A stretch of 64,000 nucleotides of DNA, taken from NCBI RefSeq assembly GCF_046293155.1, contig NZ_JBKBPQ010000014.1; one strand, given 5' to 3'. The position numbers and the translations under genes are program-made. A model generated the notes under the pieces. That model did no database searches, was not told the DNA's origin, and was given only the letters and a program-made list of their open reading frames with translations. Below, in pieces: positions 258-45,965 of this stretch. Origin of the DNA: Allosphingosinicella sp. (lineage in GTDB: Bacteria; Pseudomonadota; Alphaproteobacteria; Sphingomonadales; Sphingomonadaceae). The stretch's first letter is position 1. Each line of letters opens with the position of its first letter.

Positions 258-958
258 ACTTGAGCCTCCTCATCGGCTGGCGCCACGGTATCGGCATTGT
301 TGCCGTCGAATTCTGCGAGGTAGATGCGATAGGTCTCGGGCTCCATTCGGAATAGGACCTCACTCGCGCGAAACTCGACTTCAAAGACGCGGACCGGCCC
401 GAAAGTCTCGTCAACATGTTCGTTGAAGGCGCCGTTGTCGTCAAAGCTTGGACCGACGGCCGGCGGTAGCGTCCGATCCTGCCGGTGCACGCGATGAAGA
501 AAGCCTACGATGGCATCGGCGGCCTCGGCAGCGAGCAACGCTTGAACAGCTTCCATCACCGGGCGCGGCTCACCCGATCCGTGAGAGGCGAAGCCACACT
601 GGTTGCGCAGCTCGCATATTCCTTGAACGGCCGTGCTCAGACCGGAAAGCGTCTGGACCAAGCTCTTGCGCACCTCGGCCGCGTCGCTCGCGGTGGCGGG
701 CAGGAAGGGCAGATTCTGCGTGGCGGATTTGAATAGCTTCGGCAAATCGTCGGTCGAATCAAAAGCGACCGCGCGTTCGCCCAATACGGCGCGGCAGGTG
801 CTCTCGACCAGCGTTTTGGCGAGATCGAAGGCGAGGCCGGGGTTCTCGACCACGGCCTGCTCGATGCCCTTGACCTGTTCCTCGATATGCGCGAGGCCCG
901 CAGCCATGGCGTCTCGGGCGCCGTGCATGACGAATGGCTGGGGCGCGGGCGCGGCCAT
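254..958 (-). CDS. Abi_C-like (abortive infection C-terminal domain) protein embedded between hsdS and hsdR
   Basis: Internal ATG at 958 of ORF 254..1270 (MAAPAPQPF...) shares one nt with the hsdS stop (TGATG). The motif ICELRNQCGFASHG resembles the lRN..G.gHG hallmark of Abi_C as I recall it. The stop overlaps the hsdR start. Confidence 0.65.
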   Translation of the reverse strand: MAAPAPQPFVMHGARDAMAAGLAHIEEQVKGIEQAVVENPGLAFDLAKTLVESTCRAVLGERAVAFDSTDDLPKLFKSATQNLPFLPATASDAAEVRKSLVQTLSGLSTAVQGICELRNQCGFASHGSGEPRPVMEAVQALLAAEAADAIVGFLHRVHRQDRTLPPAVGPSFDDNGAFNEHVDETFGPVRVFEVEFRASEVLFRMEPETYRIYLAEFDGNNADTVAPADEEAQV

Positions 959-2286
959 CACAGCACCCGATCGAGGAAGGTCTCGGCGTCCTTTATGCGT
1001 AGTTCGCCGGAGATGAGCTTGGGCAGCAGCGTGTCGCGGAGTGCCGCTAGGGTCCGGGCTTCGCGCACTGCCGCGCTCGAACGCGCGAACCAGGGTTTCA
1101 CAGCGGAACCTAATGCAAGAAGAACTTGGGGCGTCGGTGACACGAATTGGAAGTGATTCAAAGCCGACGCTGGCACTCTTTGCCGTCCGCTCGTACCCGT
1201 CATGCCCTGTATGGCGAAATCGCGGAACCGTTGATCTCGCGCGAGCAGATAGCCTGCCTCTTCCGGCCAAGGTGCTTTTGGTCGCAGTACGATGTATTCA
1301 GTCGAGCCCCAGCCGATCTGACCATCCTGCAGAAAATCTACGAAGGCGGTCTTGCCGTTTTCGAGACAAGGTGTGATCCGCGCAACGAGGGTATCCCCGT
1401 TCGTGAACCTCATCCCTGAGCCGAACGGACGCTGTGCCACCTCATCCGGCGCGTGACCTTTCGTTGGCATATTCGCCATGTCGAGATAGGGCGCGGGCAG
1501 GTCCTTCTTCAGGGCGCGCGTTGGGTTGACTTCGAATACCTCGGGCAATCGAACAGACTGCCACCCCTCCGGAACCTCCCCGTGCTCGGTCTCCACCAAC
1601 CGGTCGGGGAAGAGGGCGGCGAGGTGCGGTGGGAGACCGGTGGCACGATCTTCTGCCTTGGCGCGGACGGGCTCAAAATCGATCAACCACGCCTTGAACA
1701 GCGCGCGCGCCATCGCCTCCAGCGTCGCACTCATCCTCCGGTTCAGTTCGATTTTGTCGTCCAGCGTCCCGAGGATATGCGCGATGGCGCGCTGTTCTGA
1801 GAGAGGGGGCAACGAGAGTTCGATTGTCCGTAGATAGCTTACGGGACGCGCAATGGAGGGGACTCCGACTTGAGACGCGTTCGCGAGTAGTTTGTGACGC
1901 CCTTCAGGTGTCTTAAAAAATGCGACAATGAATTCGGGACACGCCACCTTCTGATTGGGGCGTAGGTAAAATTGACGCTGCGAGATAATGTAACGAACAA
2001 ATTTCGACTCTCGGGGGATATATGCGACTTGGCCAATGTTGCCAGCATGTGTGAAGATCACATCTCCACGCTGAACATTGGCCCTTGCAAGGCGGTTTGC
2101 GTGTTCTTCCGATATAAAATTGTATCCGACTTCGTCGTTGAGCCTCTGCCCCTGCAAGTGCTGACCGCTGATAACAGGAATTCCGTCATCGACAAATGTC
2201 TCTACTTTGATCGAAGAGCCAAATGGGCCCATTGCGACGTACTCCGCGATCTCCTCAATAGTTACCTCTCGCCACTCACTCGCCAT
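958..2286 (-). CDS. hsdS: Type I R-M specificity subunit
   Basis: Two target recognition domains flank the conserved [27 protein letters not shown]... central and C-terminal helices. The likely start [13 protein letters not shown] at 2286 overlaps the hsdM end by 11 nt. Confidence 0.9.
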
Positions 2287-4111
2287 ACCCAAGCTCCCGC
2301 AGATTGGCGGCGATGGCGGCATCCAGCCTCGCGGCCTCTTCCTGCTGCGCGCGCAAATCGGCGACCAGCCGTGCCATCTTGTCAGCGAATGGCTCGTCGT
2401 CTTGCTCCGCAGCCTCCGCGCCGACATAGCGACCGGGGGTCAGCACATGTCCGTGCTTGCGGATTTCCTCCAGCGAGGCGGCCTTGCAGAAGCCGGGGAT
2501 GTCCTCGTAGGCCGTGAGACCATCGACCGACTCCGGCGGCACGTCCTTCTCGCCGCGCCAGAGATGATACATGCCGGCGATCCTGGCGATGTCCTCGTCC
2601 GACAGGTCGCGATGGGTGCGGTCGACCATGAGGCCCATCTTGCGCGCGTCGATGAACAGCACGTGTCCACGTCGGTCGCGGAACTTGTGGTTCTTGCGGT
2701 CGCGGGCGAGGAACCAGAGACAGGCCGGAATCTGCGTCGAATAGAAGAGCTGCCCCGGCAGCGCGACCATACAGTCGACGACGTCATCTTCGATTAGCTT
2801 CTTCCGTATCTCGCCTTCACCCGACTGGTTTGAAGACATCGAGCCGTTCGACAGGACAAAACCCGCGACGCCCGTCGGCGCGAGGTGATGCACGATGTGC
2901 TGGACCCACGCGAAGTTTGCGTTCCCCGCAGGCGGATCACCGTATTGCCAGCGCTTGTCGCCCCGAAGACGCTCCCCGCCCCAGTCGGAGATGTTGAAGG
3001 GCGGGTTTGCGAGGATGAAATCGGCCTTTAGATCGGGGTGACGGTCGTTGTGGAACGTGTCGCCATGGGCGATCTGCCCGTCGATCCCCCGAATGGCGAG
3101 ATTCATTTTCGCCAGTCGCCAGGTCGTGTAGTTCGACTCCTGGCCGTAAATCGAGATGTCGGCCTTTGCCTTGCCGCCGTTACCATTGCCGTTTGCGTGG
3201 GCACGGATGAACTCCATGGACTGGACGAACATGCCGGACGAGCCGCAACAGGGGTCGTAGACCCGGCCGCGATAGGGCTCCAGCATCTCGACCAGCAACT
3301 TGACCACACAGCGTGGCGTGTAGAACTCGCCGCCTTTCTTGCCTTCGGCGCTGGCAAATTGGGACAGGAAGTACTCGTATATCCGGCCGAGCACATCCTT
3401 CGCCCTGGCTTCGGCATCGCCGACCTTGATGTTCGAGATCAGGTCAATCAGCTGGCCGAGCCGAGTTTTGTCTAGCGCCGGGCGCGCGTAGTCCTTGGGC
3501 AGCACACCTTTCAGAGCGGAGTTATCACGCTCGATGCCCGTCATTGCGTCGTCAACCAGCTGCCCAATGGTGCTCTGCCGGGCTTGCGCCTTGAGATGTG
3601 CCCAGCGGGCCTCAGGCGGCACCCAGAAAATATTCGCGGCCCGGTACTCGTCCGGGTCCTCCGGATCGGCTCCCTGATCCTGTTCCGCTTCGAGCTTGGC
3701 GTGCATCTCCTCGAAGGCGTCGGAAATGTACTTGAGGAAGATGAGTCCGAGGACGACGTGCTTATATTCCGCCGCGTCCATGCTGCCGCGCAGGGCATCC
3801 GCCATCCGCCAGAGCTCGGCCTCGTAGCCGACGTTGGCCGCCGAAGTGTTGGGGCGGGCAGCACGTACTTTTCGGTCAACCTCGGCGGCCTTCGCGGCAG
3901 CCGGGAAGCCCTCACCCTCCGCAACAATGGCGACAGAGCCGCCACGCCCACGGCCAGGCACGATTGCGCCATCGTCAATCAGCGCCTGCCTGACCTCTTC
4001 ATATAGGGCTTCATCCCAGCCGAGGGTCTCGCGCAGCTTTCCATTTCCGGCCGAGCCGCCGAGCTCAGCCAATACCTCGACAAACCTGTCTCTCTGCGCC
4101 TGCTCAGCCAT
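2276..4111 (-). CDS. hsdM: Type I R-M N6-adenine DNA methyltransferase subunit
   Basis: 611 aa with the NPPF catalytic motif ([12 protein letters not shown]) and an AdoMet-binding region ([12 protein letters not shown]). AAGGGGG RBS upstream of the ATG at 4111. Confidence 0.95.
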
Positions 4112-4121
4112 GCTGCCCCCT

Positions 4122-4304
4122 TCAATCCTGCTTCAGCTTCATGGCCGCCGCTGCTTCCAGCGCCTTCAGCCGTTCGTATTCCTCGACCGACAGTACGACC
4201 ACGACCGGCCGCCCGTGCTTGGCCACCGCCACCGGCTCGGCGCGGGCGAGGTCGATCAGTCGACCGAAGCCATACTTCGCGTCTTTTGCGCTCAGGGTCT
4301 GCAT
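4122..4304 (-). CDS. Phd/YefM-family antitoxin-like protein with no cognate toxin gene
   Basis: [50 protein letters not shown] is a typical Phd/YefM fold sequence. An alternative upstream start lies at 4340. The stop is 10 nt before the hsdM start. Confidence 0.7.
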
Positions 4305-4389
4305 GCGACTCCCCGCCTTGCGCCGAGCAGTTTTGGCCAATTTGGCCCAATTAGCAATGCCTAAGCGCAGATTGGCCGGGATGACGGCG

Positions 4390-4797
4390 CTAGCTGGGCA
4401 GGAAAGCTTGGTACTGCTCGGTCCAACTCAGTGGAAACGGCCCCATCAACGCCGCAAGCGAGAGTCGAGGTGGCTGCCTTCCGTCGAGAATCGCCTCGAC
4501 GATGTCCGGGGCCAGCAGGGTCAGGCGCAGGACCCGGCACAGATAGGACTGGTTGATCTTCTCCGCTTCGGCCAGTTCGGTCACCGAGGCGAATCGGCCG
4601 CTCTCCATGAGGCGCTTCCAGCGGTGGGCCCGGGCGATTGCCTTGACCATGGTGTTGTCGACGCGCGGGCGGGGCTGGCCCCAACCCGCCCCGTCGGGCG
4701 TGACCACCTGCTTGCGCCCGCCGCGCTTCCTGACGGTCAGAGGCACACGGACCGTTAGCGTCCGCCCGTCATCGGTGGTGGCGTCACCGGCTCTCAT
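4390..4797 (-). CDS. Small HTH-like protein co-transcribed with the serine recombinase (function unknown)
   Basis: The ATG at 4797 forms an ATGA overlap with the recombinase stop. Contains TELAEAEKINQSYLCRVLRLTLLAPDIVEAILDGRQP, an HTH-like segment seen next to recombinases. Confidence 0.55.
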   Translation of the reverse strand: MRAGDATTDDGRTLTVRVPLTVRKRGGRKQVVTPDGAGWGQPRPRVDNTMVKAIARAHRWKRLMESGRFASVTELAEAEKINQSYLCRVLRLTLLAPDIVEAILDGRQPPRLSLAALMGPFPLSWTEQYQAFLPS

Positions 4798-6125
4798 GCT
4801 GCCCTCCACGGATTGTCGGCCATGCCGCCAAGCTCATGGACCAGACGAGCCAGCCCATCGACTCGGAGGCGGATATCGACGCCTCCCTCTCCGACGTCGA
4901 CGCGCTCGACAAGGAGCTGGACGACGCGCGCCTGCTCGGCCGGGAACAGCTCGTCCCACAGCGGGTCCAGCCCTTCCAAGGCTTCCCTGACCTCAGCCTC
5001 GGACAGACCATCGATCTCGGGTCGTGCCGATCGCCATGTGCCGACGATCACCTCCGGGGCCCGGAGGAGGCCGCGCAGCTGGTCGACAACCGCGCCCTCG
5101 ATCTCAGCGGCGGGCACGCGCCCGACCGGGCAGGCATCGGCGCCGCGCTTCAGGACCGACTGGCTGACATAGTAGCGGTAGAGCTTGTCGCCGCGTCGCG
5201 TGTGCGTCGGCGTCATGGCGCAGCCGGTCGGCCCGAAGATGAGGCCCTTGAGCAATGCGGGTGTCGCGGCCCGTGTCCGGCCCGCGCGCACCCTCGGGCT
5301 CTCGCGCAGGATTCCGTGCACCTTGTCCCACAAGGCGCGCGTGATGATGGCATCGTGCTCGCCGGGATAGGCCGTCCCCTTGTGCACGGCGTCACCGATA
5401 TAGACCCGGTTGTTGAGCAGCTTGTAGAGGAAGCCCTTGTCGACGAGTCGTCCGCGCCGCGTCCGCACGCCCTCGGCCGCGAGCGCCCGGGCCAACGCGG
5501 TCGCCGAACCCACCTCGACGAAGCGCTCGAAGATCATCCGGACCGTCGCGGCCTCGGCATCATTGATCACCAGCTTGCGGTCCCTGACCTCGTAGCCGAG
5601 CGGCACGAAGCCGCCCATCCACATGCCGCGTTTGCGCGAGGCGGCGATCTTGTCGCGGATGCGCTCGCCGATCACCTCGCGCTCGAACTGGGCGAAGCTG
5701 AGCAGGATGTTGAGCGTAAGCCGCCCCATGGACGTCGTGGTGTTGAACGACTGGGTCACGCTGACGAAGGTGACCCCGCCGCGATCGAACACCTCGACCA
5801 GCTTGGCGAAATCCATCAGCGAGCGGCTGAGCCGGTCGATCTTGTAGACGACGACCACGTCGATCCGACCGTCCTCAATGTCGGCGAGCAGGCGCTTCAG
5901 CGCAGGCCGGTCCAGCGTCCCGCCCGAGAAGCCGCCGTCATCATAGGGCTCGGGATAGAGGACCCAGCCTTCGGGCTTCTGGCTGGCGATATACGCTTCG
6001 CAGGCCTCGCGCTGGGCATCGAGGCTGTTGAACTCCATCTCCAGCCCTTCTTCCGTCGACTTGCGCGTATAGACCGCGCAGCGCAGCTTTCGGATGGATT
6101 TGGCGGATGCGGGTGATTTCGTCAT
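4794..6125 (-). CDS. Large serine recombinase (prophage integrase)
   Basis: N-terminal resolvase catalytic domain (RCAVYTRKSTEEG..., VVVYKIDRLSRSL) plus recombinase and zinc-ribbon-like C-terminal domains. The start MTKSPAS at 6125 overlaps the DUF2924 stop (ATGA). Confidence 0.95.
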   Translation of the reverse strand: MTKSPASAKSIRKLRCAVYTRKSTEEGLEMEFNSLDAQREACEAYIASQKPEGWVLYPEPYDDGGFSGGTLDRPALKRLLADIEDGRIDVVVVYKIDRLSRSLMDFAKLVEVFDRGGVTFVSVTQSFNTTTSMGRLTLNILLSFAQFEREVIGERIRDKIAASRKRGMWMGGFVPLGYEVRDRKLVINDAEAATVRMIFERFVEVGSATALARALAAEGVRTRRGRLVDKGFLYKLLNNRVYIGDAVHKGTAYPGEHDAIITRALWDKVHGILRESPRVRAGRTRAATPALLKGLIFGPTGCAMTPTHTRRGDKLYRYYVSQSVLKRGADACPVGRVPAAEIEGAVVDQLRGLLRAPEVIVGTWRSARPEIDGLSEAEVREALEGLDPLWDELFPAEQARVVQLLVERVDVGEGGVDIRLRVDGLARLVHELGGMADNPWRAA

Positions 6126-6574
6126 GCTTGGCCTCGCCGGTTCTTGAGGCCGAAAAAGACCCAGCCGTTCCAGCGCGTCCCGGTGATGGCGCGCGCGATG
6201 GCGGAGAGCGAGCGGTAGGGACGCCCCTGCCATTCATAACCGTCGTTCAGCACCGTGACCGTGTGCTCGACGCCCTGCCATTCGCGGATCAGCCGCGTGC
6301 CGGCGATCGGCTTGTCGTCGGCGCGGATCCGGCGCAGCACGATGTTGCCGCCGTCGAGCTGCTCGCCCAGAGCTTCGAGGCGCTCGATCGTTGCGGGTTT
6401 CAAACCGCCATAAGCCAATTCCTGGATCCGATAAGCGAGCCGGCTTTCCAGGAAGCGCCGATTGTAAGGCGGCGCCTCCGTGTCGAAGAGTTCGCGCCAC
6501 TGCTTCTTGAGGTCAGGCGTCGGCGTCGTCTTCAATGCGGCCAGCCGAGCCAGGACGGTGTCTGTCATGGTCAT
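6122..6574 (-). CDS. DUF2924 protein (serine-recombinase accessory protein)
   Basis: LKKQWRELFDTEAPPYNRRFLESRLAYRIQELAYGGL ... WQGRPYRSLSAIARAITGTRWNGWVFFGL matches DUF2924 as I recall it. The start at 6574 overlaps the upstream small-ORF stop. Confidence 0.8.
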   Translation of the reverse strand: MTMTDTVLARLAALKTTPTPDLKKQWRELFDTEAPPYNRRFLESRLAYRIQELAYGGLKPATIERLEALGEQLDGGNIVLRRIRADDKPIAGTRLIREWQGVEHTVTVLNDGYEWQGRPYRSLSAIARAITGTRWNGWVFFGLKNRRGQA

Positions 6575-6786
6575 GCGTCTCCTTTGCAAATTGGAGTTCC
6601 ATGACCGCTCCGGTCGGGCGAGAAGTGAAGGCAACTTTCTCCGCGGTCGCCAGATACTTGCCTTGACTGGCGTGCCTTAAGCCGAACCAGCCCGCGCGCA
6701 AGAATCCTGCAGACCTCCCCGATTCGCTCGTCCGGCGTCATATGCCCGGGGTGGATCGGGTTCGGCATGTCCATCGCAGAGATCAC
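6571..6786 (-). CDS. Small ORF (71 aa) heading the recombinase operon
   Basis: Its stop overlaps the DUF2924 start (ATGA at 6571-6574), which supports translation. No family recognised. Confidence 0.4.
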   Translation of the reverse strand: MISAMDMPNPIHPGHMTPDERIGEVCRILARGLVRLKARQSRQVSGDRGESCLHFSPDRSGHGTPICKGDA

Positions 6787-6925
6787 CTAAGGGATTGGAT
6801 TCCCTTGGCCTCTACTCACGGTGCGGACGGTCCGTCCCAAGGCGATGGCTTTTGAATCGACTCCACCAAGCATTTGCGATAAGAACGTAAGATGAACAAA
6901 TGCGAGGCAATTATGGGCGGCTGAG

Positions 6926-8173
6926 ATGGCTAAGAACCTGAAGAAATTCGTCAATCCCAAGTTTACCCGAACCGTCGATCTCGGCCTGCTGGGCCGCCTG
7001 TTCGAGCGCCACGGCGATGCCCTGAACGGGCTGGACCTTGGGGTCTTCAGGGGCGAGGCCGCGCAGGACGAGGCACGCAGCGCCGTTCAGGATTTCTTCG
7101 CGGGGCCGGAAGAGAACTATCCGGAAGGGCTCGTCGCCGACCTGCACCGGATCGCCGAGATCGGCAACGCGGCAGGCCTCGACATTATTCTTCAGCAGGC
7201 CGCGCGGCTCGGGATCCGCGTGACACCCGAAGCGAAGGATGACGAGCCGGAGGTTCACCAGGATCCCAAGCACGTCGCCCTGCGCGTCTTCCTCGATCAT
7301 CCCGACGTCTTTGACGCCGCGTCGGACATGATGGCGCTCATGGCGCGCACGTCGCTCGCCGAGTTCGTGGGCCGCGACGAAGGCGTCGAGGCGATCATGG
7401 ATGATCGCGCAAAGGCCGAATTCGAAACCGCCGCCGCCGCGATGTTCGAACAGGATCTCCGCAGCAATTATTGCCGCGCCGGCTGGTATGACGATGCCGA
7501 CGAACTCGTCCTGGTGATCGAGCATGGCTCGCCGATCACCACGACCGACGTCCTGCAAAAGGACCAGAAGCGCGTGATCAGCTTCCGCGCCGCCGAACAC
7601 GCGGTGCTGTCCTACAACTCCACGTCGGGCCTGTTGAAGATCGGCGGCGTGGCGAAGGCGCGCCGCGCCGATCTCGCGGAACTGTTCGCCGACAAGATCC
7701 TGGGCAAGCCCGAATTCTTCGCCGGCGATGACGCCCAGAACCTCTACACGCTCGACCCGGTGCAGCGCGCGGGCTTCGGCTTCGCGTTCAACCATGATTT
7801 CGATCCGGGCATCCAGCGGGTCCAGATCACCGAGGTCCAGGTCGACCGCGTCGGCGCCGATCCGAAGACCGGCGAGACACGAACCTTCTACTCCTATGTT
7901 GCGCGCGACGGACGCGACAATGCCCTGGCCAGGTTGGGCGAGATGATGCGGGGCGCTCGTCTCGGGTCGGATTGGCGCCTCAACCACATCGTCATCCGCG
8001 TCCATTTCGCGACCGGCGGCAAGTCGGCGAAGAAGGTGACCATCAAGCTGAAGCCGCCGGCCCACGCCATGTTCAAGCGTCAGCAGTTCGAAGGCCGGAT
8101 CATGACGCTCCTTCGCCGCAACGGACTGCTCAATGACCGAGACGCTGCCCAGGCTGCTGTTGCGGCTGAGTGA
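6926..8173 (+). CDS. Unknown 415-aa protein (cassette gene A)
   Basis: Protein-like composition and G/C-rich third positions on the plus strand. No motif I can assign. Confidence 0.7.
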   Translation: MAKNLKKFVNPKFTRTVDLGLLGRLFERHGDALNGLDLGVFRGEAAQDEARSAVQDFFAGPEENYPEGLVADLHRIAEIGNAAGLDIILQQAARLGIRVTPEAKDDEPEVHQDPKHVALRVFLDHPDVFDAASDMMALMARTSLAEFVGRDEGVEAIMDDRAKAEFETAAAAMFEQDLRSNYCRAGWYDDADELVLVIEHGSPITTTDVLQKDQKRVISFRAAEHAVLSYNSTSGLLKIGGVAKARRADLAELFADKILGKPEFFAGDDAQNLYTLDPVQRAGFGFAFNHDFDPGIQRVQITEVQVDRVGADPKTGETRTFYSYVARDGRDNALARLGEMMRGARLGSDWRLNHIVIRVHFATGGKSAKKVTIKLKPPAHAMFKRQQFEGRIMTLLRRNGLLNDRDAAQAAVAAE

Positions 8174-9113
8174 GGCGGGCGATCCCGCAATTCTATGGGG
8201 CCGACAGGCGGCGCCTCATGCCGGGCGCGATTTCGAGCGGCTGCTCGATCATGGCGTCCTGGTCGAGCAGGCGCCGGCAACGGAATGGGATGTGTGCCCC
8301 GCGTGCGATTGCGGTCTCGACGCGCGGCCCATCCATCAGGTCAACGGGCGACACATCGCGGTTTGTCCGACGGACCGGCGCAACGACGTCGTTCTCGGCG
8401 CTGACGATCTGCGGAGCTTTCGGATTCATCCCTCCGCGCTGGTCCGCGAAATCGCCATGGCGTCCGGGTTCGGAGGCAAGCCGACGCCGGTCGCGGCGGG
8501 TGTCTGGCATCTGGGGGAAACATCGAATCAGCGGGCGCTGTTCCTCGCACTGTCGCAGGATGCAGTGCTTCAACCGGGATTGATCGGCCTGATGCGTTCG
8601 GTCGCCCGGTCATCACCCATCACGGTGATCGCGCCGGCGATGGCTACAGATGACTGGGCGCGCTTGGTCGACGGAGGGCTTCATGTTGTCGCTGGATCGC
8701 ACTGCATTGCTTGCGATGGGACTGCACCTGGATTGTCGATCGATCAGTCCAAACTGGAATCGCAACCGAGCTTGGCGCCCCGATTGGTGATTCAACGCGC
8801 CGCCAAGACGGTATCGCTCGACGGAATGCCCAAAACCCTTTCCGATCAGGAATTCCAGCTGCTGGTCCTTCTGGCGGAACATGCGTTGAAGTCGCCCGCC
8901 ATCGTCGAGAATCGTGCGATCGAGGCGCATATCTGGGGAGCGAGCATCCATAGGATTTCGTCGCAGGTGCGCGAGCCCGTGCGCGCGCTTCGGGATGCGC
9001 TGGCTCGCGGCAGCGCGGATGCTACGTCCGTACGCGCATTGATCGAGAATCGGCGAAATCCGAACGGCTACCGGCTGGCTCTGCCTCCGGAGGAAATCGA
9101 ATTGATCAAGTAG
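8133..9113 (+). CDS. Cys-cluster plus OmpR/PhoB-type winged-helix DNA-binding protein (cassette gene B)
   Basis: CPACDC-x17-C cluster near the N-terminus. The C-terminus (LSDQEFQLLVLLAEH..IVENRAIEAHIWG..VRALRDAL..NPNGYRL) resembles a trans_reg_C domain. No receiver domain. The start overlaps gene A by 41 nt, so the start is uncertain. Confidence 0.65.
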   Translation: MTETLPRLLLRLSEAGDPAILWGRQAAPHAGRDFERLLDHGVLVEQAPATEWDVCPACDCGLDARPIHQVNGRHIAVCPTDRRNDVVLGADDLRSFRIHPSALVREIAMASGFGGKPTPVAAGVWHLGETSNQRALFLALSQDAVLQPGLIGLMRSVARSSPITVIAPAMATDDWARLVDGGLHVVAGSHCIACDGTAPGLSIDQSKLESQPSLAPRLVIQRAAKTVSLDGMPKTLSDQEFQLLVLLAEHALKSPAIVENRAIEAHIWGASIHRISSQVREPVRALRDALARGSADATSVRALIENRRNPNGYRLALPPEEIELIK

Positions 9114-9141
9114 CCGCTGGTGAACGCAGCAGGAGGGAAGC

Positions 9142-9855
9142 GTGGCCGATTTCGGCACCGATGAAGGCGGTGGTTTCAACGCCATTAGCCGATCCTACAA
9201 GAACGATCCGACAATTGAGCACTATGTAAAGCTGCGGCGCGAAAACCCGGACGCCGAAATCGAAGTGTCTGTTGTCGGCGGGATGGACCAACTGATGTTC
9301 ATGGAGCCTGAACTCAGAAAGTTCGGCTTCGATCCTCAAATTGTTGCCGGCGTCTTGGATGCAGACCCTGAGGCGATAAGTGCGCTCTCGTTGCAGATCA
9401 TGGAAAGAATGATTGAAGCTCGGGATCTCGCCCGATCAGGTCAGACCCACCTGACCAGACGCGGTTTGGTCGTCCCTGACAAGCTGATCAATTGGCTAAT
9501 CGCATGCATGCTGGATTCCTTGAGCTGGACTGACGAGCTTTACATGCCAAGGGATCTTATCGTCCTGATCCGCGAGCGCTTGGGCGGATCCAACCTCGAA
9601 TACGAACAGGCGTCCGCTGCCCACCAGAAGCGATGGTCCGCGATCATCGTCGGTGGTCAACTCAAGGCACGGGGGATCGAGCCAAGCTTCAGAATGCTCG
9701 CCAAAATTCTCAAGGTTTCTCCCACCACCGTCATGCGCTGGTTCCCGGATGGCGAGTTCGAGGAGGAAATCGCGCGGGTATCCACCTGGTTCGACGAGAA
9801 CGGCCAGATGCGAAGCCTCTCGGACATCACCCGACGACCGTTGCAAACGAAATAA
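9142..9855 (+). CDS. Unknown 237-aa protein with C-terminal HTH (cassette gene C)
   Basis: GTG start. HTH-like SFRMLAKILKVSPTTVMRWF. Visibly lower GC than its neighbours. Confidence 0.6.
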   Translation: MADFGTDEGGGFNAISRSYKNDPTIEHYVKLRRENPDAEIEVSVVGGMDQLMFMEPELRKFGFDPQIVAGVLDADPEAISALSLQIMERMIEARDLARSGQTHLTRRGLVVPDKLINWLIACMLDSLSWTDELYMPRDLIVLIRERLGGSNLEYEQASAAHQKRWSAIIVGGQLKARGIEPSFRMLAKILKVSPTTVMRWFPDGEFEEEIARVSTWFDENGQMRSLSDITRRPLQTK

Positions 9856-10047
9856 GCTGCGCAACACCTAAACCGTCAGTCAAACCTGCGGCGCCGATGG
9901 ATATCGGCCAATCGCAGGAAGTCTCCGGTGATCGCGGGCCAAGCATACCCACACTTCGCCCACATCATCACCACGTCGTGCCCACCTATTCTGGCCGGCG
10001 CATCGGCAACCTGCGGACATCACGAACGATGACCGAGGCGTTGACCG

Positions 10048-10623
10048 ATGCATTCTTCTATTTCCCGAGACGACCTTCAGATCCTTCTTCATGAGGCGGA
10101 CATCGCCGCCCGCCGCCTCGTCCGCCAGCTGCGGCTTCCTCGCGCCGATCTCGACGATGTCCGCCAGGACCTGCTCGTTGATCTAATAGCCCGGCTTCCC
10201 GCCTACGACGCAGATCGCGGCACGCTCGGCGCCTTTGCCGGCGCCATCCTCACCAACAGGGCGACGCGCATCGCCAACAAGGTGAAGCGGGAGCGCCGGA
10301 TGTATGGCGCGACGCCGATCTCGCTCGACGAGGCCATTCCCGACAGCGACGGGCTGACCCGCGGCGATCTCATCGCCGAAGCCGATGGGCTGTCGGCGCT
10401 CTTCGGCCAGCCCGTCGACGCATTCGCCACCGCCGAGGAGCGTCTCGATGTCGAGCGCGGTCTTGGCTCGCTCGAACCCGCCGACGGCGCTCTCTGTGCA
10501 GCCCTCTCCCGCACCACCGTCGATCGCCTTGCCGCGAGCGGGCATGGCGCCCGCAGCAGCCTCTACCGCCGCGTCAAGGACATCCGCCTTGCCCTGACGG
10601 CGATCGGCGTCCGGGCCGCGTGA
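10048..10623 (+). CDS. ECF-type sigma-70 family factor, prophage-encoded
   Basis: Region 2-like DLDDVRQDLLVDLIARLPAYDADRGTLGAFAGAILTNRATRIANKVKRERR and region 4-like HTH SSLYRRVKDIRLAL. Confidence 0.7.
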   Translation: MHSSISRDDLQILLHEADIAARRLVRQLRLPRADLDDVRQDLLVDLIARLPAYDADRGTLGAFAGAILTNRATRIANKVKRERRMYGATPISLDEAIPDSDGLTRGDLIAEADGLSALFGQPVDAFATAEERLDVERGLGSLEPADGALCAALSRTTVDRLAASGHGARSSLYRRVKDIRLALTAIGVRAA

Positions 10624-21252: not shown

Positions 21253-21616
21253 GGCAAAGCGTAACGCAAAACGGGACGTCCTGTCAAGCGGGACGCTCTG
21301 CCTTACGGTACGGCGTTAATATCAACGAACTCAGAGAGATAGCGGTTCCTCCCTGGCCGAAATCGTATGCTGGCGGCAATGGCGCGATGCTTGCCCAGTG
21401 ACGGCGCCGAAATAGGCCATTTCGTTTCGCCCGCATGCCTGGCCTCGTGAAATCAAACACTTGGGCGTCTGCGCGCCTCGGCGATGGCGAAGCCGCCGGC
21501 TGGGGGCGTTTCGTTTCGAGCGCATCGGCGAAGCGGCACTGGTTTCGCCGGCACAGCGCATCGACGGGCTTCGCGACCGCCGGATCAGATCCTTCACCTA
21601 TCGCACCGGACCGACC

Positions 21617-22939
21617 ATGGACGTCGTCGAAACGCCGATCGACAAGCTCGTGCCCTATGCCCGCAACCCGCGGCGCAACGAGGAGGCTGTCGCCACGGTC
21701 GCCGCCTCGCTGGCCGAGTTCGGCTGGCGTCAGCCGATCGTCGTCGACGAGGACATGGTGATCGTCGTCGGCCACACCCGCTACGAGGCGGCCAAGCGCC
21801 TCGGCATGACGAGCGTGCCGGTGCATGTCGCACATGGCCTTACGCCGGCGCAGCTGCGCGCCTACCGGCTGATGGACAACCGCTCGCATCAGAATGCGAG
21901 CTGGGACGACGAGCTGCTCAAGCTCGAACTGGCCGATCTGAAGCTCGACGATTTCGACCTGGCGCTGACCGGTTTCGAGGACGACGAACTGGCCCGTCTC
22001 CTGGCCGAGGCGCCCGTCGAGGGGTTGGTGGACGAAGACGATGTTCCGGAGCCGCCCGCCACGCCCGTCACCCGCCGCGGCGATCTCTGGATCCTCGGGG
22101 ACCACCGCCTGCTCTGCGGAGATTCGACCTCGGCCGAGGACGTCACCCGCCTGATGAATGGCGAACGCGCCGCACTGTTCGCGACCGATCCGCCCTATCT
22201 CGTCGACTATGACGGCACCAACCATCCGACGAAGAAGAACGCGTCCGCCCGCGCCAAGAAGATCGCGAACAAGGATTGGTCCGAGGACTACATCGAACAG
22301 AAGCACTGGGACGATTCATCCCAGGGGCCGCAGTTCTATGAGGCCTTCATGCAGGTCGCCATCGACCGCGCCATCAAGGAGGACGCGGCCTGGTATTGCT
22401 GGCATGCCTCGCGGCGCCAGACGATGCTGGAAGCCTGCTGGTCCAAGTTCGACGTGCTGCATCACCAGCAGATCATCTGGGCCAAGAGCCGTCCGGTGCT
22501 CACGCGCTCGATCATGCTGTGGGCGCACGAGCCGTGCCTGTTCGGCTGGCGCTCGGGCAAGAAGCCGCGCGTCAATCGCGAAGGCTTCGAGAACTGGCCG
22601 ACGACGGTGTGGTCCATCCCGTCGAGCGAGATCGAGACGCGTGAGCATCCGACCTCGAAACCGGTGCGCGTGTTCACGTTGCCGATGGAGCTGCACACCG
22701 TGCCGGGTGAGATTTGCTACGAACCGTTCTCCGGCTCGGGCTCGCAACTCATCGCAGGCGAGCGGACGGGGAGACGCGTCTTCGGGCTTGAGCTCTCCGA
22801 GACCTTTTGTGACGTGATCGTCAACCGCTGGCAGGCCTTCACCGGGAAACCGGCAAGGCTGGAGGGCGAGAATCGCAGTTTCGACGAGGTGAGGACCGAG
22901 CGCGTCGGCACTCGCGACAGCGATCAGGACGCCGCATGA
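21617..22939 (+). CDS. ParB-like nuclease domain fused to DNA methyltransferase (orphan MTase)
   Basis: The N-terminus (LVPYARNPRRN...IVVGHTRYEAAKRLG) is ParB-like. The MTase domain has a DPPY motif (FATDPPYLVDY) and a C-terminal FSGSGS AdoMet motif. Confidence 0.9.
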   Translation: MDVVETPIDKLVPYARNPRRNEEAVATVAASLAEFGWRQPIVVDEDMVIVVGHTRYEAAKRLGMTSVPVHVAHGLTPAQLRAYRLMDNRSHQNASWDDELLKLELADLKLDDFDLALTGFEDDELARLLAEAPVEGLVDEDDVPEPPATPVTRRGDLWILGDHRLLCGDSTSAEDVTRLMNGERAALFATDPPYLVDYDGTNHPTKKNASARAKKIANKDWSEDYIEQKHWDDSSQGPQFYEAFMQVAIDRAIKEDAAWYCWHASRRQTMLEACWSKFDVLHHQQIIWAKSRPVLTRSIMLWAHEPCLFGWRSGKKPRVNREGFENWPTTVWSIPSSEIETREHPTSKPVRVFTLPMELHTVPGEICYEPFSGSGSQLIAGERTGRRVFGLELSETFCDVIVNRWQAFTGKPARLEGENRSFDEVRTERVGTRDSDQDAA

Positions 22940-45273: not shown

Positions 45274-45290
45274 ATGTGCGGAGACCACCC

Positions 45291-45965
45291 ATGACGACCA
45301 CCACCTTCAACCACTGGCGCGACGTGCCGACCGCCCGCTGGCGCTGGAAGAACTTCTCGCCTGCGGAGATCGCCTGCCGCGGCAGCGGTAGCTTGCGCAT
45401 CCACGAGGAGGCGCTCGACAAGCTGCAAGCCCTTCGCGATCGGCTGGGCAAGCCGCTGATCGTTCGCTCGGCCTACCGCAGCCCGGCGCACAACCGCGCC
45501 GTCGGCGGAGCGGCGCGCTCGAAGCATCTCGACGGCACGGCCTTCGACATCGCCATGACGAATCACGACCCGGTGGCGTTCGAGGCAGCGGCGCGCGAGG
45601 TGGGGTTCCTCGGGTTCGGCTTCTACCCGCGCTCCGGGTTCATCCATATCGACCTCGGGCCCGCACGGCAGTGGGGCGAACGGTTTCCGGTGCGGGCGAC
45701 GGCGTTCGCGGCAGAAATCCCGCTCGCGCGCGAGGCACTGGCCGACAGCCGCACCATGAAGGGCGGTGGAGCGGCTGGCGTGGCGACGTTGGGTGCTGCG
45801 GGCGTGGAGGTCGCGCAGAGCGTCCTGGCCGAGACCCAGTCCGCCATCCTGCCGCTCGTGCCGTATCTCGACACGGTTCGCTGGGTGTTCATCGCGGTCG
45901 CCCTCGGCGGCATCGCGGTCACGGTCTACGCGCGTCTCGACGACTGGAAGCGGGGGCGGCGATGA
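45291..45965 (+). CDS. Peptidase M15A-type endolysin with C-terminal TM anchor
   Basis: SAYRSPAHNRAVGGAARSKHLDGTAFDI ... GFIHIDLG zinc D-Ala-D-Ala carboxypeptidase motifs. C-terminal WVFIAVALGGIAVTVYA. Confidence 0.85.
   Translation: MTTTTFNHWRDVPTARWRWKNFSPAEIACRGSGSLRIHEEALDKLQALRDRLGKPLIVRSAYRSPAHNRAVGGAARSKHLDGTAFDIAMTNHDPVAFEAAAREVGFLGFGFYPRSGFIHIDLGPARQWGERFPVRATAFAAEIPLAREALADSRTMKGGGAAGVATLGAAGVEVAQSVLAETQSAILPLVPYLDTVRWVFIAVALGGIAVTVYARLDDWKRGRR

What the first reader, a model, noticed from the sequence alone, without database searches (positions are those of the whole stretch)
6926..9855. Unrecognisable three-gene cassette next to the integrase module: candidate novel defence or lysogeny-control system
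Three co-directional ORFs of 415, 326 and 237 aa sit at the prophage end beside the recombinase module. That is the classic slot for prophage accessory or defence cargo. The first two overlap by 41 nt and the third follows after 28 nt. I cannot place the 415-aa protein in any family: no Walker A, HTH, nuclease or transferase motif that I recognise. The 326-aa protein joins a CPACDC-x17-C cysteine cluster to a C-terminal OmpR/PhoB-type winged helix (LSDQEFQLLVLLAEH..IVENRAIEAHIWG..VRALRDAL..NPNGYRL) and has no receiver domain. The 237-aa protein ends in an HTH (SFRMLAKILKVSPTTVMRWF). From about 8700 to 9855 the G+C content drops. My hand counts of two 60-nt stretches gave about 53-57 percent, against what looks by eye like the mid-60s in flanking phage genes. 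Third-position G/C bias also weakens, which suggests separate acquisition. No CI/Cro-type repressor pair is recognisable elsewhere in the prophage (only HigA), so the cassette could instead be an unconventional immunity switch.
Basis: partly seen in the sequence, partly recalled or inferred. Interest (0 to 1): 0.75.

Follow-up and report, generated by a model that had tools for sequence, protein, structure and literature searches.

The report
SOS-gated prophage early-control operon
The three unknown genes are not a defence cassette: the first two are the conserved, probably DNA-damage-triggered master-control genes of a large uncharacterised family of alphaproteobacterial prophages, and only the third is swappable cargo.

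Summary
The ORFs, the 41-nt overlap, the 28-nt gap, the Cys cluster, the winged helix, the HTH and the G+C dip are all real. The "accessory/defence cargo" reading fails for ORF1 and ORF2. Both sit in the same place (integrase | ORF1-ORF2-[slot]-sigma-like gene) in about 130 related loci across Alphaproteobacteria.

An alphaproteobacterial LexA box (GAAC-N7-GAAC, 6883-6897) lies 29 nt upstream of ORF1. It is exact in 111 of 124 loci, although spacer and flanks diverge.

ORF2 is an atypical OmpR/PhoB-type regulator: an invariant 4-Cys N-domain, a degenerate receiver-like fold and a wHTH. Four 11-nt-phased CCCAC repeats (9948-9985) sit at a fixed distance upstream of the sigma-like gene. Their sequence covaries with the ORF2 recognition helix: R/K goes with CCCAC, small residues with CCCAT/G, and a different helix with GAGGA.

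ORF1 has only a fold-level resemblance to the RdgC/RexA/CENP-N DNA-binding scaffold.

ORF3 occupies a truly variable slot that holds a PADLOC candidate defence gene or a subtilase in relatives. It came in with the ORF2 DNA-binding half as a low-GC mosaic block (about 8645-10047).

Best model: host LexA gates ORF1-ORF2, and ORF2 then switches on the phage sigma factor. This is a new variant of LexA-controlled lysogeny.

The parts
6883..6897 (+). Predicted host LexA operator (alphaproteobacterial SOS box, GAAC-N7-GAAC = GTTC-N7-GTTC on the other strand), 29 nt upstream of the ORF1 ATG
   Evidence: Only 3 matches in the window (1.74 expected). Exact box 31-63 nt upstream of ORF1 in 111/124 related loci, with 7 more at one mismatch and 49 distinct 15-mers; arms invariant while spacer and flanks vary. 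Motif identity taken from PMC9578287 Table 1.
6926..8173 (+). ORF1, 415 aa. Core gene of the prophage family with no sequence family. Acidic N-terminal helical domain plus alpha/beta domains; basic C-terminal part (pI 9.9). RdgC/RexA/CENP-N-like fold.
   Evidence: 302 homologues at E<=1e-3 in the word-indexed search, the best 120 being 54-95% identical. 924 clusters at 50% identity. AF2 model pLDDT 81, pTM 0.70. Foldseek top hits: RdgC 2owl (E 1.8e-4, prob 1.0), CENP-N/Chl4, RexA 8twq (E 0.06), phage RdgC. No sequence-level signal to RdgC or RexA. pI.
8133..9113 (+). ORF2, 326 aa. Atypical OmpR/PhoB-type regulator: small winged-helix-like N-terminus, invariant 4-Cys cluster, degenerate receiver-like domain, C-terminal wHTH (residues ~215-326 = 8775-9110). 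Overlaps ORF1 by 41 nt.
8295..8366 (+). Codons of the invariant Cys cluster C55-x2-C58-x-C60-x17-C78 (presumed Zn-binding or redox site)
   Evidence: Invariant in 39 diverse homologues. Lies in the beta-hairpin region of the AF2 model.
8645..10047 (+). Low-GC mosaic block: ORF2 C-terminal (DNA-binding) half + ORF3 + the regulatory region upstream of the sigma-like gene
   Evidence: Alignment with near-identical phages L008 and L011. Identity breaks at ~8645 (ORF2 codon ~171) and resumes at the sigma-like gene's ATG, 10048. GC/GC3 drop.
9142..9855 (+). ORF3, 237 aa. Accessory gene in the variable slot, with a C-terminal HTH (residues 182-206). The family also occurs as orphan chromosomal genes.
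   Evidence: Present in only 19 of ~130 related loci, always behind ORF2 allele A. Found standalone in the Rhizobium etli chromosome, at an island end and in other chromosomal contexts. HTH supported only weakly.
9885..9918 (+). Conserved hairpin just after the ORF3 stop codon (CCTGCG..GCCGAT-ggat-ATCGGC..CGCAGG); possible transcript end or processing signal
   Evidence: Conserved in ORF3-carrying loci L001, L022 and L037, with a compensatory change GCCGAA/TTCGGC in L022. No T-tract; not called by the terminator scan.
9948..9986 (+). Four direct repeats with 11-nt period (CCCAC, CCCAC, aCCAC, CCCACC): predicted ORF2 binding array (pho-box-like)
   Evidence: The only such run in the window. An equivalent array is present in most related loci, with its last unit 66-68 nt from the sigma-like gene's ATG in 76 of 86 loci. 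The repeat sequence covaries with the ORF2 recognition helix.
10003..10033 (+). Conserved core-promoter-like element tCGGCAnnCT (10003-10012), then an imperfect palindrome GaCATC-N6-GATGAC (10016-10033) and an SD sequence ahead of the sigma-like gene
   Evidence: Consensus of 63 non-redundant upstream regions anchored on the last repeat. Sequences listed.
10048..10623 (+). Probable phage sigma-70-family (ECF-like) factor, the predicted target gene of ORF2
   Evidence: Pfam Sigma70_r2 E 4.5e-5 (23.6 bits against a 24-bit cut-off). TIGR02989 5.8e-6. Family profile against PDB: all top hits are sigma factors (sigma-H at 6.5e-4, SigB, ECF sigmas).
4794..6634 (-). Context: large serine recombinase (4794-6233) and DUF2924 gene (6122-~6574/6634), divergent from ORF1
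   Evidence: Pfam Resolvase, Recombinase and Zn_ribbon_recom; DUF2924 at E 7e-52.

Best explanation
ORF1 and ORF2 are the first genes of the rightward (lytic) transcription unit of a widespread, uncharacterised family of alphaproteobacterial temperate phages. Together they form its induction switch.

Step 1 (sequence shown, binding inferred). In the lysogen, host LexA sits on the GAAC-N7-GAAC box that overlaps the ORF1 promoter and keeps the operon off. DNA damage removes LexA.

Step 2 (fold, site architecture and covariation shown; binding and sign inferred). ORF2 is a phosphorylation-independent OmpR/PhoB-type regulator. It binds head-to-tail to four 11-bp-phased CCCAC repeats whose last unit overlaps the -35 position of a promoter with no recognisable -35 element. 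From there it activates the gene for a phage sigma factor, which in turn drives later genes.

Step 3 (weakest step, inferred). ORF1 is translationally coupled to ORF2 and has an RdgC/RexA-type DNA-binding fold. It may act as ORF2's partner on DNA, or as a modulator of RecA/LexA that commits the switch.

ORF3 is not part of the core switch. It is accessory cargo in the variable slot between ORF2 and the sigma-factor promoter. It was acquired together with one ORF2 DNA-binding allele, and its function is unknown (an HTH protein; possibly a regulator or an exclusion gene).
For: Core status and synteny: integrase(-) | ORF1-ORF2-[slot]-Sig-p113 in 66 + 65 loci and in a remote relative.

LexA box: exact in 111/124 loci, with 49 sequence variants and invariant arms, at -31 to -63 from the ORF1 ATG. 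The motif equals the published Caulobacter SOS box.

ORF2 identity: profile hits to OmpR/PhoB DNA-binding domains at E 1e-7. Foldseek hits to full-length response regulators and to the PhoB-pho box complex.

Repeat array: unique in the window, at a fixed distance from the Sig ATG even where 0.9-2.9 kb of cargo is inserted.

Covariation: the helix residue before D/E is R in arrays where 115/115 units are CCCAC, and K where 16/16 are CCCAC. With A/G/S/N the units are mostly CCCAT, CCCAG or CCCAA. A wholly different helix goes with GAGGA x4.

Mosaic exchange moves the ORF2 DNA-binding half together with the repeat region.

Sig resembles sigma factors.

ORF1-ORF2 linkage: the 41-nt overlap is conserved, the recombination breakpoint spares the ORF2 N-domain, and one 755-aa ORF1+ORF2-like fusion exists.

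ORF1 fold: RdgC, CENP-N/Chl4 and RexA hits in two libraries. These form one recognised DNA-binding fold group (PMC11077077).

Precedent for the logic: GIL01, where host LexA represses and a phage activator acts at -35 (PMC6182141).

No repressor-type domain appeared in the other prophage ORFs scanned.
Against: No experimental data. LexA binding, ORF2 binding and the direction of regulation (activation or repression) are all inferred.

The allelic diversity of the ORF2 DNA-binding domain is also what an immunity repressor would show.

The simple sigma-70 consensus scan found no promoter at either site.

Many loci are close relatives, so the counts overstate independence. The covariation classes fall in a limited number of lineages.

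The ORF1 fold match has low TM scores (0.3-0.4), and there is no sequence-level similarity to RdgC or RexA.

Sig scores just under Pfam's cut-off.

Two relatives (L021, L090) lack the LexA box.

I did not scan every small ORF of the prophage for a conventional repressor.
Confidence: 0.55

Rival explanations
1. Immunity (lysogeny-maintenance) operon. ORF1-ORF2 are expressed in the lysogen. ORF2 is the prophage repressor that sits on the four repeats and blocks the sigma-factor promoter. ORF1 plays a RexA-like accessory role beside the repressor, as in lambda cI-rexA.
For: The ORF2 DNA-binding domain and its cognate repeats come in many alleles and are exchanged as one block between near-identical phages, as in heteroimmune phages. 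The last repeat overlaps the -35 position, which suits occlusion as well as activation. No CI-type repressor was found elsewhere. ORF1 shows a RexA/RdgC-like fold next to a regulator.
Against: A LexA operator on the promoter of a maintenance repressor would raise the repressor level on DNA damage, which is the opposite of induction. The genes are co-directional with, and head, the lytic unit rather than diverging from it. ORF2 has no autocleavage (S24) domain or other recognisable inactivation route. OmpR/PhoB-type arrays of direct repeats at -35 are typically activating (established knowledge; the PhoB-pho box complex 1gxp is among the hits).
Confidence: 0.2
2. One reading: the three genes form a novel anti-phage defence (or toxin-like accessory) cassette carried as prophage cargo.
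For: Location near the integrase end and lack of annotation. The slot that holds ORF3 carries a PADLOC candidate defence gene (PDC-S36, E 2.8e-128) in L066 and a subtilase in L040. ORF3 is compositionally foreign and occurs as a solo gene elsewhere.
Against: ORF1 and ORF2 are invariant in all related phages and have dedicated conserved cis-elements tied to the phage's own sigma-factor gene. None of the three hits PADLOC. Cargo varies in the ORF2-Sig slot and to the left of the integrase, not at ORF1-ORF2. At most ORF3 alone could be a defence or exclusion gene.
Confidence: 0.07
3. Excision control: ORF1 (and/or ORF2) is the recombination directionality factor for the neighbouring serine integrase, made on SOS induction.
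For: Strict adjacency and divergent arrangement with Int-DUF2924 in nearly all loci. SOS-timed expression is what an RDF needs. Known serine-integrase RDFs are diverse and unannotated (established knowledge).
Against: ORF1 homologues with their LexA box also sit next to tyrosine integrases in L109 and L112. The ORF2 DNA-binding specificity tracks repeats at the sigma-factor gene, not at att sites. The ORF1 fold suggests non-specific DNA binding rather than the known RDF types.
Confidence: 0.1

Closest known systems
Bacillus thuringiensis tectivirus GIL01 lysis-lysogeny switch (host LexA + gp7 repress P1/P3; phage activator gp6 binds over the -35 of the late promoter) - PMC6182141, PMC4551915
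   Same: No dedicated CI-type repressor is recognisable. Host-type LexA operator on the early promoter. A phage-encoded DNA-binding activator is predicted to act at the -35 region of the next promoter in the cascade.
   Different: Different phage type (integrated, tailed, serine integrase) and host phylum. Single direct-repeat alphaproteobacterial SOS box. The regulator is an OmpR/PhoB-type protein, not a LexA homologue. No gp7-like co-repressor identified. The next tier is a sigma factor. Nothing has been tested experimentally here.
PhoB/OmpR-family response regulators on tandem 11-bp direct repeats (pho box; PDB 1gxp), and atypical or orphan members such as GlnR and RitR
   Same: wHTH fold (TM 0.7-0.85). 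Four direct repeats with 11-bp phasing, the proximal one overlapping -35. Receiver-like fold without phospho-acceptor chemistry, as in atypical response regulators.
   Different: Extra N-terminal ~115 aa with an invariant CxxCxC-x17-C cluster. No conserved Asp and no cognate kinase. Phage-encoded. Pfam score below the gathering cut-off.
RdgC / lambda RexA / Iml3-Chl4 (CENP-L/N) DNA-binding fold group (PMC11077077)
   Same: The ORF1 model's best structural matches in PDB and BFVD are RdgC, CENP-N/Chl4 and (more weakly) RexA. Basic C-terminal domain. Like RexA, it is encoded beside the phage's switch regulator.
   Different: No sequence similarity (hhalign probability ~0.1%). Extra acidic N-terminal helical domain of ~140 aa. 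415 aa against 279-303 aa. No RexB-like partner seen. Predicted to be SOS-induced rather than expressed in the lysogen.
LexA-controlled antirepressor modules (coliphage 186 Tum, Gifsy/Fels-type antirepressors) - from established knowledge
   Same: A host LexA box gates phage induction genes instead of a self-cleaving CI.
   Different: Those phages still have a CI-like repressor that the antirepressor inactivates. Here no such repressor is evident, and the LexA-gated products are a transcription factor plus a DNA-binding-fold protein.

Membership tests
OmpR/PhoB winged-helix effector domain (Pfam PF00486 Trans_reg_C) - ORF2 | Sequence match to the family model above the curated cut-off | tested here: inconclusive
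   The window protein scores 22.6 bits against a 26.2-bit cut-off. Several homologues carry a precomputed PF00486 hit. The family profile hits ArlR, PhoB, KdpE and similar DNA-binding domains at E 1e-7 to 1e-3.
OmpR/PhoB winged-helix effector domain - ORF2 | wHTH fold (N-terminal beta-sheet, three helices, C-terminal hairpin wing) | tested here: met
   AF2 pLDDT 86. Foldseek hits to PhoB, GlnR, ArlR and YycF DNA-binding domains at TMt 0.70-0.85, rmsd 2.2-2.8 A.
OmpR/PhoB response regulators - ORF2 | Receiver domain with conserved phospho-acceptor Asp | tested here: not met
   Only a truncated receiver-like fold (alignments of 177-203 columns to full-length response regulators). No invariant Asp between residues 118 and 200 in 39 homologues. 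No kinase gene nearby.
OmpR/PhoB response regulators - ORF2 | Binds tandem direct repeats spaced about one helical turn apart | tested here: inconclusive
   A 4 x 11-nt array lies upstream of Sig and covaries with the recognition helix. Binding itself cannot be tested with these tools.
RdgC family (Pfam PF04381) - ORF1 | Sequence similarity to RdgC | tested here: not met
   No Pfam hit at E<=0.1. hhalign of the family profile against E. coli RdgC gives probability 0.1%.
RdgC/RexA/Iml3-Chl4 fold group - ORF1 | Shared two-domain alpha/beta scaffold | tested here: inconclusive
   Foldseek probability 0.99-1.0 for RdgC (PDB and BFVD) and CENP-N, but TM only 0.3-0.4 and rmsd 11-12 A over ~330 columns. 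RexA at E 0.06. No domain-wise superposition was possible.
RdgC/RexA fold group - ORF1 | Dimeric, non-specific DNA binding | not testable with these tools
   Only indirect support: the C-terminal 155 aa have pI 9.9.
Lambda Rex exclusion system - ORF1 | Paired with a RexB-type polytopic membrane protein and co-transcribed with cI in the lysogen | not tested
   Neighbours are a wHTH regulator and an HTH protein. No membrane-protein prediction was run. The LexA box argues against lysogenic expression.
Alphaproteobacterial SOS (LexA) regulon member - ORF1-ORF2 operon | GTTC-N7-GTTC direct-repeat operator in the promoter region | tested here: met
   Box at 6883-6897. Conserved in 111/124 loci with variable spacer. 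Motif as listed in PMC9578287.
Alphaproteobacterial SOS (LexA) regulon member | LexA binding and DNA-damage induction | not testable with these tools
   Needs EMSA, reporter assays or RNA-seq.
Known or candidate anti-phage defence systems (PADLOC-DB 2.0) | Any component matches a defence-system model | tested here: not met
   No hit for ORF1, ORF2 or ORF3 at E<=0.1.
CI/Cro-type immunity region | Divergent repressor/cro pair with HTH_3 (XRE) and usually an S24 autocleavage domain | tested here: not met
   All three ORFs are co-directional. No HTH_3 or Peptidase_S24 hit for ORF1 or ORF2. ORF3 family members give only scattered sub-threshold hits to many generic HTH models, among them HTH_3 in 7 of 45.
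GIL01-type LexA-maintained lysogeny | Absence of a dedicated phage repressor; LexA co-repressor (gp7-like) | tested here: inconclusive
   No repressor-type domain in the ~30 prophage ORFs scanned, but small ORFs were not scanned exhaustively. No search for a gp7-like protein.
Sigma-70 family - downstream gene 10048-10623 | Region 2 (and region 4) similarity | tested here: inconclusive
   Sigma70_r2 scores 23.6 bits against a 24-bit cut-off. TIGR02989 at 5.8e-6. The profile's PDB hits are all sigma factors, best E 6.5e-4. Region 4 not detected.

The most novel reading that the evidence does not exclude
A whole, widely distributed family of alphaproteobacterial temperate phages has no repressor of its own. 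Host LexA is the only lysogeny repressor. Induction is executed by a previously undescribed two-protein switch that turns on a phage sigma factor. The two proteins are an RdgC/RexA-fold protein and a Cys-cluster, phosphorylation-independent OmpR/PhoB-type activator. 'Immunity types' are then set by an Arg/Lys-versus-small-residue code in the activator's recognition helix and its 11-bp repeats.
Probability: 0.3. Interest if true: 0.75.

Novelty: new variant of a known kind. Interest (0 to 1): 0.55.

Why it matters
Lysogeny control in Alphaproteobacteria is poorly understood, and most of their prophages lack recognisable CI/Cro genes.

This module gives a concrete, testable wiring diagram: LexA box, then ORF1/ORF2, then an 11-bp repeat array, then a phage sigma factor. 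The diagram applies to a prophage family found from Rhizobiales to Sphingomonadales, Rhodospirillales and Acetobacteraceae.

It would assign roles to two large unannotated protein families; ORF1 alone has at least 900 clusters at 50% identity. It offers a natural amino-acid-to-base specificity series for an OmpR/PhoB-type domain. It also shows where these phages really carry swappable cargo, namely the ORF2-sigma slot and the region beyond the integrase.

For annotation, ORF1 and ORF2 should not be flagged as defence candidates.

Tried and rejected
- Family scans of all three proteins against Pfam, PHROGs, NCBIfam and PADLOC gave nothing beyond weak wHTH/HTH hits.
- tblastn of ORF1 against 50,697 GenBank phages: no match.
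- ORF1 family profile against PDB sequences: only noise.
- hhalign of the ORF1 family against E. coli RdgC and lambda RexA: no signal.
- Pfam on ten remote ORF1 relatives: none annotated.
- Rfam on 6400-10300: nothing.
- The sigma-70 promoter / intrinsic terminator scan gave no useful site.
- I asked whether the proximal repeat plus tCGGCA could be a promoter motif recognised by the phage sigma factor and reused elsewhere. There is no second copy in the window.
- I asked whether LexA boxes precede the standalone ORF3 homologues. There are none.
- Generic repeat finding in 6600-10100 did not reveal the 11-nt array. It only showed up on comparison across loci.
- ORF1 as a serine-integrase RDF: weakened by the loci with tyrosine integrases.
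- One Python call failed and was replaced by ORF-listing runs.

Full report

Yes. The window has three co-directional ORFs: 6926-8173 (415 aa), 8133-9113 (326 aa) and 9142-9855 (237 aa, GTG start). The first two overlap by 41 nt and a 28-nt gap precedes the third.

To the left, on the minus strand, lie a large serine recombinase (4794-6233) and a DUF2924 gene. Further left is a type I R-M pair, HsdM/HsdS. To the right is a typical phage early/replication module: sigma-like protein, Sak4/AAA_24, Cas4-type exonuclease, Dda-like helicase, primase, RuvC. An endolysin at 45276-45965 is followed by host genes. An IMG/VR viral contig with a 100% identical ORF1 starts at window ~4390. DNA similarity to close relatives starts at 4471/4472. 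The cassette is therefore at the left end of a roughly 42-kb prophage.

ORF1 hits no Pfam, PHROG, NCBIfam or PADLOC model. ORF2 gives only a sub-threshold Trans_reg_C hit. ORF3 gives only weak generic HTH hits.

The G+C dip is real. G+C is 0.55-0.56 at 9001-9750 against 0.64-0.70 around it. GC3 is 0.67-0.68 for the ORF2 C-terminal half and ORF3, against 0.75-0.89 for neighbouring genes.

**2. Core or cargo?**

All three proteins belong to large families of 'hypothetical' proteins. A profile search for ORF1 finds 924 clusters at 50% identity. No sequenced phage isolate in GenBank encodes ORF1.

I compared 66 loci (3 genomic plus 63 IMG/VR) and then 65 loci from GTDB species genomes. The order integrase(-) DUF2924(-) | ORF1 ORF2 [gap] sigma-like p113 ... 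holds in essentially every locus that extends far enough. A remote relative keeps the same synteny. The hosts span Alphaproteobacteria, including Bosea, Parvibaculum, Erythrobacter, Aurantimonas, Nitrobacter, Magnetospirillum and Roseomonas.

ORF1 and ORF2 are thus core genes.

ORF3 is present in only 19 of these loci. The ORF2-to-sigma gap is usually 100-136 nt, but in some relatives it holds other genes. These are a 289-aa PADLOC candidate defence protein (PDC-S36, E 2.8e-128), a 620-aa subtilase, and unknown proteins of 429 and 415 aa. That gap is a genuine variable slot, and ORF3 is its occupant here.

ORF3 homologues also occur as solo genes in ordinary chromosomal neighbourhoods, including the Rhizobium etli chromosome, and at the end of a tyrosine-integrase/AlpA island.

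**3. The low-GC stretch is a mosaic block.**

I aligned the window with near-identical phages that are 96-98% identical in integrase, ORF1 and the sigma-like gene. Identity collapses at ~8645, inside ORF2 at about codon 171, and returns exactly at the sigma-like gene's ATG (10048).

The exchanged block holds the ORF2 DNA-binding half, ORF3 and the region upstream of the sigma-like gene. Phages with the other block have a different ORF2 C-terminus (64-67% overall identity), no ORF3 and a 129-nt gap.

**4. A conserved LexA box in front of ORF1.**

The int-ORF1 intergenic region is conserved whichever ORF2 allele is present. It contains GAACGTAAGATGAAC at 6883-6897, 29 nt before the ORF1 ATG. This is GAAC-N7-GAAC, the direct-repeat SOS box of Alphaproteobacteria, listed as GTTCN7GTTC for Caulobacter in PMC9578287 Table 1.

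One box in the window would not be remarkable on its own: there are 3 matches against 1.74 expected. Its conservation is what matters. An exact box lies 31-63 nt upstream of ORF1 in 111 of 124 loci, and 7 more have one mismatch. There are 49 different 15-mers. The two GAAC arms are invariant while the spacer and flanks drift.

The box stays with ORF1 even where the neighbouring integrase is a tyrosine recombinase (L109, L112). Two relatives (L021, L090) have instead a CTTATAAT-type promoter.

Inference: the ORF1-ORF2 operon is repressed by host LexA and induced by DNA damage.

**5. ORF2 and its predicted target.**

The ORF2 family has an invariant C55-x2-C58-x-C60-x17-C78 cluster. Its N-terminal ~190 residues are well conserved, and its C-terminus comes in many alleles. 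The family profile matches OmpR/PhoB DNA-binding domains in the PDB at E 1e-7.

The AF2 model (pLDDT 86) matches full-length response regulators such as GlnR, KdpE, PhoP, PrrA and RitR over 177-203 columns. It matches isolated PhoB-type DNA-binding domains at TM 0.70-0.85. ORF2 is thus an atypical response-regulator-like protein: an extra N-terminal Cys-cluster module, a degenerate receiver-like fold without a conserved Asp, and a wHTH.

Upstream of the sigma-like gene, almost every locus has four direct repeats with exactly 11-nt spacing. In the window these are CCCAC at 9948 and 9959, aCCAC at 9970, and CCCAC at 9981. It is the only such run in the window.

The last unit lies 66-68 nt from the sigma-like gene's ATG in 76 of 86 loci, even when kilobases of cargo are inserted upstream. 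Three elements follow it at fixed distances: a conserved tCGGCAnnCT, a GTCATC-N6-GATGAC palindrome and the Shine-Dalgarno sequence.

The repeat sequence tracks the ORF2 recognition helix:
- Where the residue before the conserved D/E is Arg, 115 of 115 units are CCCAC.
- Where it is Lys, 16 of 16 units are CCCAC.
- Where it is Ala, Gly, Ser or Asn, the distal units are mostly CCCAT, CCCAG or CCCAA.
- The one allele with an unrelated helix has GAGGA x4 at the same spacing and position.

Taken together with the block exchange in section 3, this is strong comparative evidence that ORF2 binds this array in the head-to-tail manner of PhoB on pho boxes. Lineages are not fully independent, and binding is not shown.

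The last unit overlaps where a -35 element would be, and no -35 is recognisable. I therefore favour activation, but repression is not excluded.

The target gene is probably a sigma factor. Its Sigma70_r2 score is just under the cut-off, and every PDB hit of the family profile is a sigma factor.

**6. ORF1.**

The AF2 model (pLDDT 81, pTM 0.70) has an acidic helical N-terminal domain followed by alpha/beta domains. The last 155 residues are basic, with pI 9.9.

Foldseek against the PDB puts E. coli RdgC first (E 1.8e-4, probability 1.0), followed by many CENP-N/Chl4 chains and, more weakly, lambda RexA. Against viral models, a phage RdgC is among the top hits. RdgC, RexA and Iml3/Chl4 are described as one DNA-binding fold group in PMC11077077.

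TM scores are low (0.3-0.4), and there is no sequence-level similarity. I therefore treat this as a fold-level lead and not as family membership.

Several observations link ORF1 to ORF2. The 41-nt overlap is conserved. The recombination breakpoint leaves the ORF2 N-domain with ORF1. One 755-aa protein looks like an ORF1+ORF2 fusion.

The role of ORF1 remains the weakest part of the model. It could be a partner of ORF2 on DNA, a modulator of RecA/LexA as described for RdgC, or a RexA-like bias towards lysis.

**7. Mechanism and rivals.**

Best model (confidence 0.55): LexA keeps P(ORF1) off in the lysogen. DNA damage releases ORF1-ORF2. ORF2 turns on the phage sigma factor gene through the repeat array. 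ORF3 is passenger cargo.

This is the logic of phage GIL01, where host LexA maintains lysogeny and a phage activator acts over a -35 element (PMC6182141). Here it is built from different parts in a different phage and host group.

Rivals:
- ORF2 as an immunity repressor (0.2). Allelic diversity fits, but the LexA box and gene orientation do not.
- A defence cassette (0.07). This could hold for ORF3 at most.
- An excision factor (0.1). The tyrosine-integrase loci weaken it.

No conventional repressor domain appeared in the prophage ORFs I scanned. The scan was not exhaustive.

**8. Novelty and score.**

The individual principles are known: SOS boxes, OmpR/PhoB-type arrays and phage sigma cascades. 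The protein families, the conserved cis-architecture and the helix-to-repeat covariation appear undescribed. Literature searches for this combination found nothing relevant.

I rate it a new variant of a known kind, with interest 0.55. It is a well-defined, testable switch for a broad prophage family, and it is not a new defence system.

Noticed in passing
window 4472-7000 and loci L070-L083: Near-identical copies of this prophage (ORF1 96-100% aa, about 95% nt) occur in isolates of different alphaproteobacterial orders: Bosea minatitlanensis, Erythrobacter cryptus, Altererythrobacter lauratis, Sphingosinicellaceae M-36 and alpha proteobacterium BAL199. They also occur in several MAGs. This suggests an unusually broad host range or very recent spread.
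   Followed up: partly
window 958-4111 (HsdS/HsdM); L001 281-6359; L002 2991-6532; L018, L028, L034, L069, L073, L085, L125: Beyond the integrase, relatives carry different restriction-modification or methylase genes: HsdM-like at only ~30% identity, ResIII + N6_N4 MTase, and MmeI-like MTase. The real variable defence-cargo slot of this phage family seems to be to the left of the integrase, not at ORF1-ORF3.
   Followed up: partly
L066 8202-9071; L040 3604-5466; L030 8167-9456; L132 6280-7527: The slot between ORF2 and the sigma-factor promoter holds other cargo in relatives: a PADLOC PDC-S36 / NOV_C protein (E 2.8e-128), a 620-aa subtilase, and unknown proteins of 429 and 415 aa.
   Followed up: partly
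L021 and L090, 70 nt upstream of ORF1: Two relatives lack the LexA box. They carry a near-consensus -10 (CTTATAAT) at the same place, which may mean a LexA-independent variant of the switch.
   Followed up: no
window 10003-10033: A conserved tCGGCAnnCT lies at a fixed 22-31 nt after the last repeat. A GTCATC-N6-GATGAC palindrome then directly precedes the sigma-like gene's ribosome-binding site in nearly all loci. The function is unknown: core promoter, 5'-UTR hairpin or a second operator.
   Followed up: partly
window 9885-9918: Hairpin just after the ORF3 stop codon, conserved in ORF3-carrying loci, with a compensatory GCCGAT/ATCGGC to GCCGAA/TTCGGC change in L022. It has no T-tract.
   Followed up: no
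window 6789-6806: Palindrome AAGGGA-ttggat-TCCCTT in the int-ORF1 intergenic region, conserved among close relatives. It could be an operator for the divergent integrase/DUF2924 promoter.
   Followed up: no
protein P0478 (755 aa): A single long protein that looks like an ORF1-like N-terminus fused to a collinear ORF2-like C-terminus with a weak Trans_reg_C hit. It may be a genuine gene fusion that points to ORF1-ORF2 interaction, or a frameshift artefact.
   Followed up: partly
L109 and L112: ORF1 homologues (55-65% identical) with their LexA box sit next to tyrosine integrases instead of the serine recombinase/DUF2924 pair.
   Followed up: partly
window 4390-4809 (-) / 4141-4758 (+): A conserved small gene directly downstream of the integrase (130-152 aa in L001 and L002) overlaps a 205-aa ORF on the other strand. 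Homology to relatives begins at 4471/4472, so the prophage end or att site lies inside or near it.
   Followed up: no
window 21461-22939: A ParB_N domain fused to an N6_N4 DNA methylase inside the prophage.
   Followed up: no
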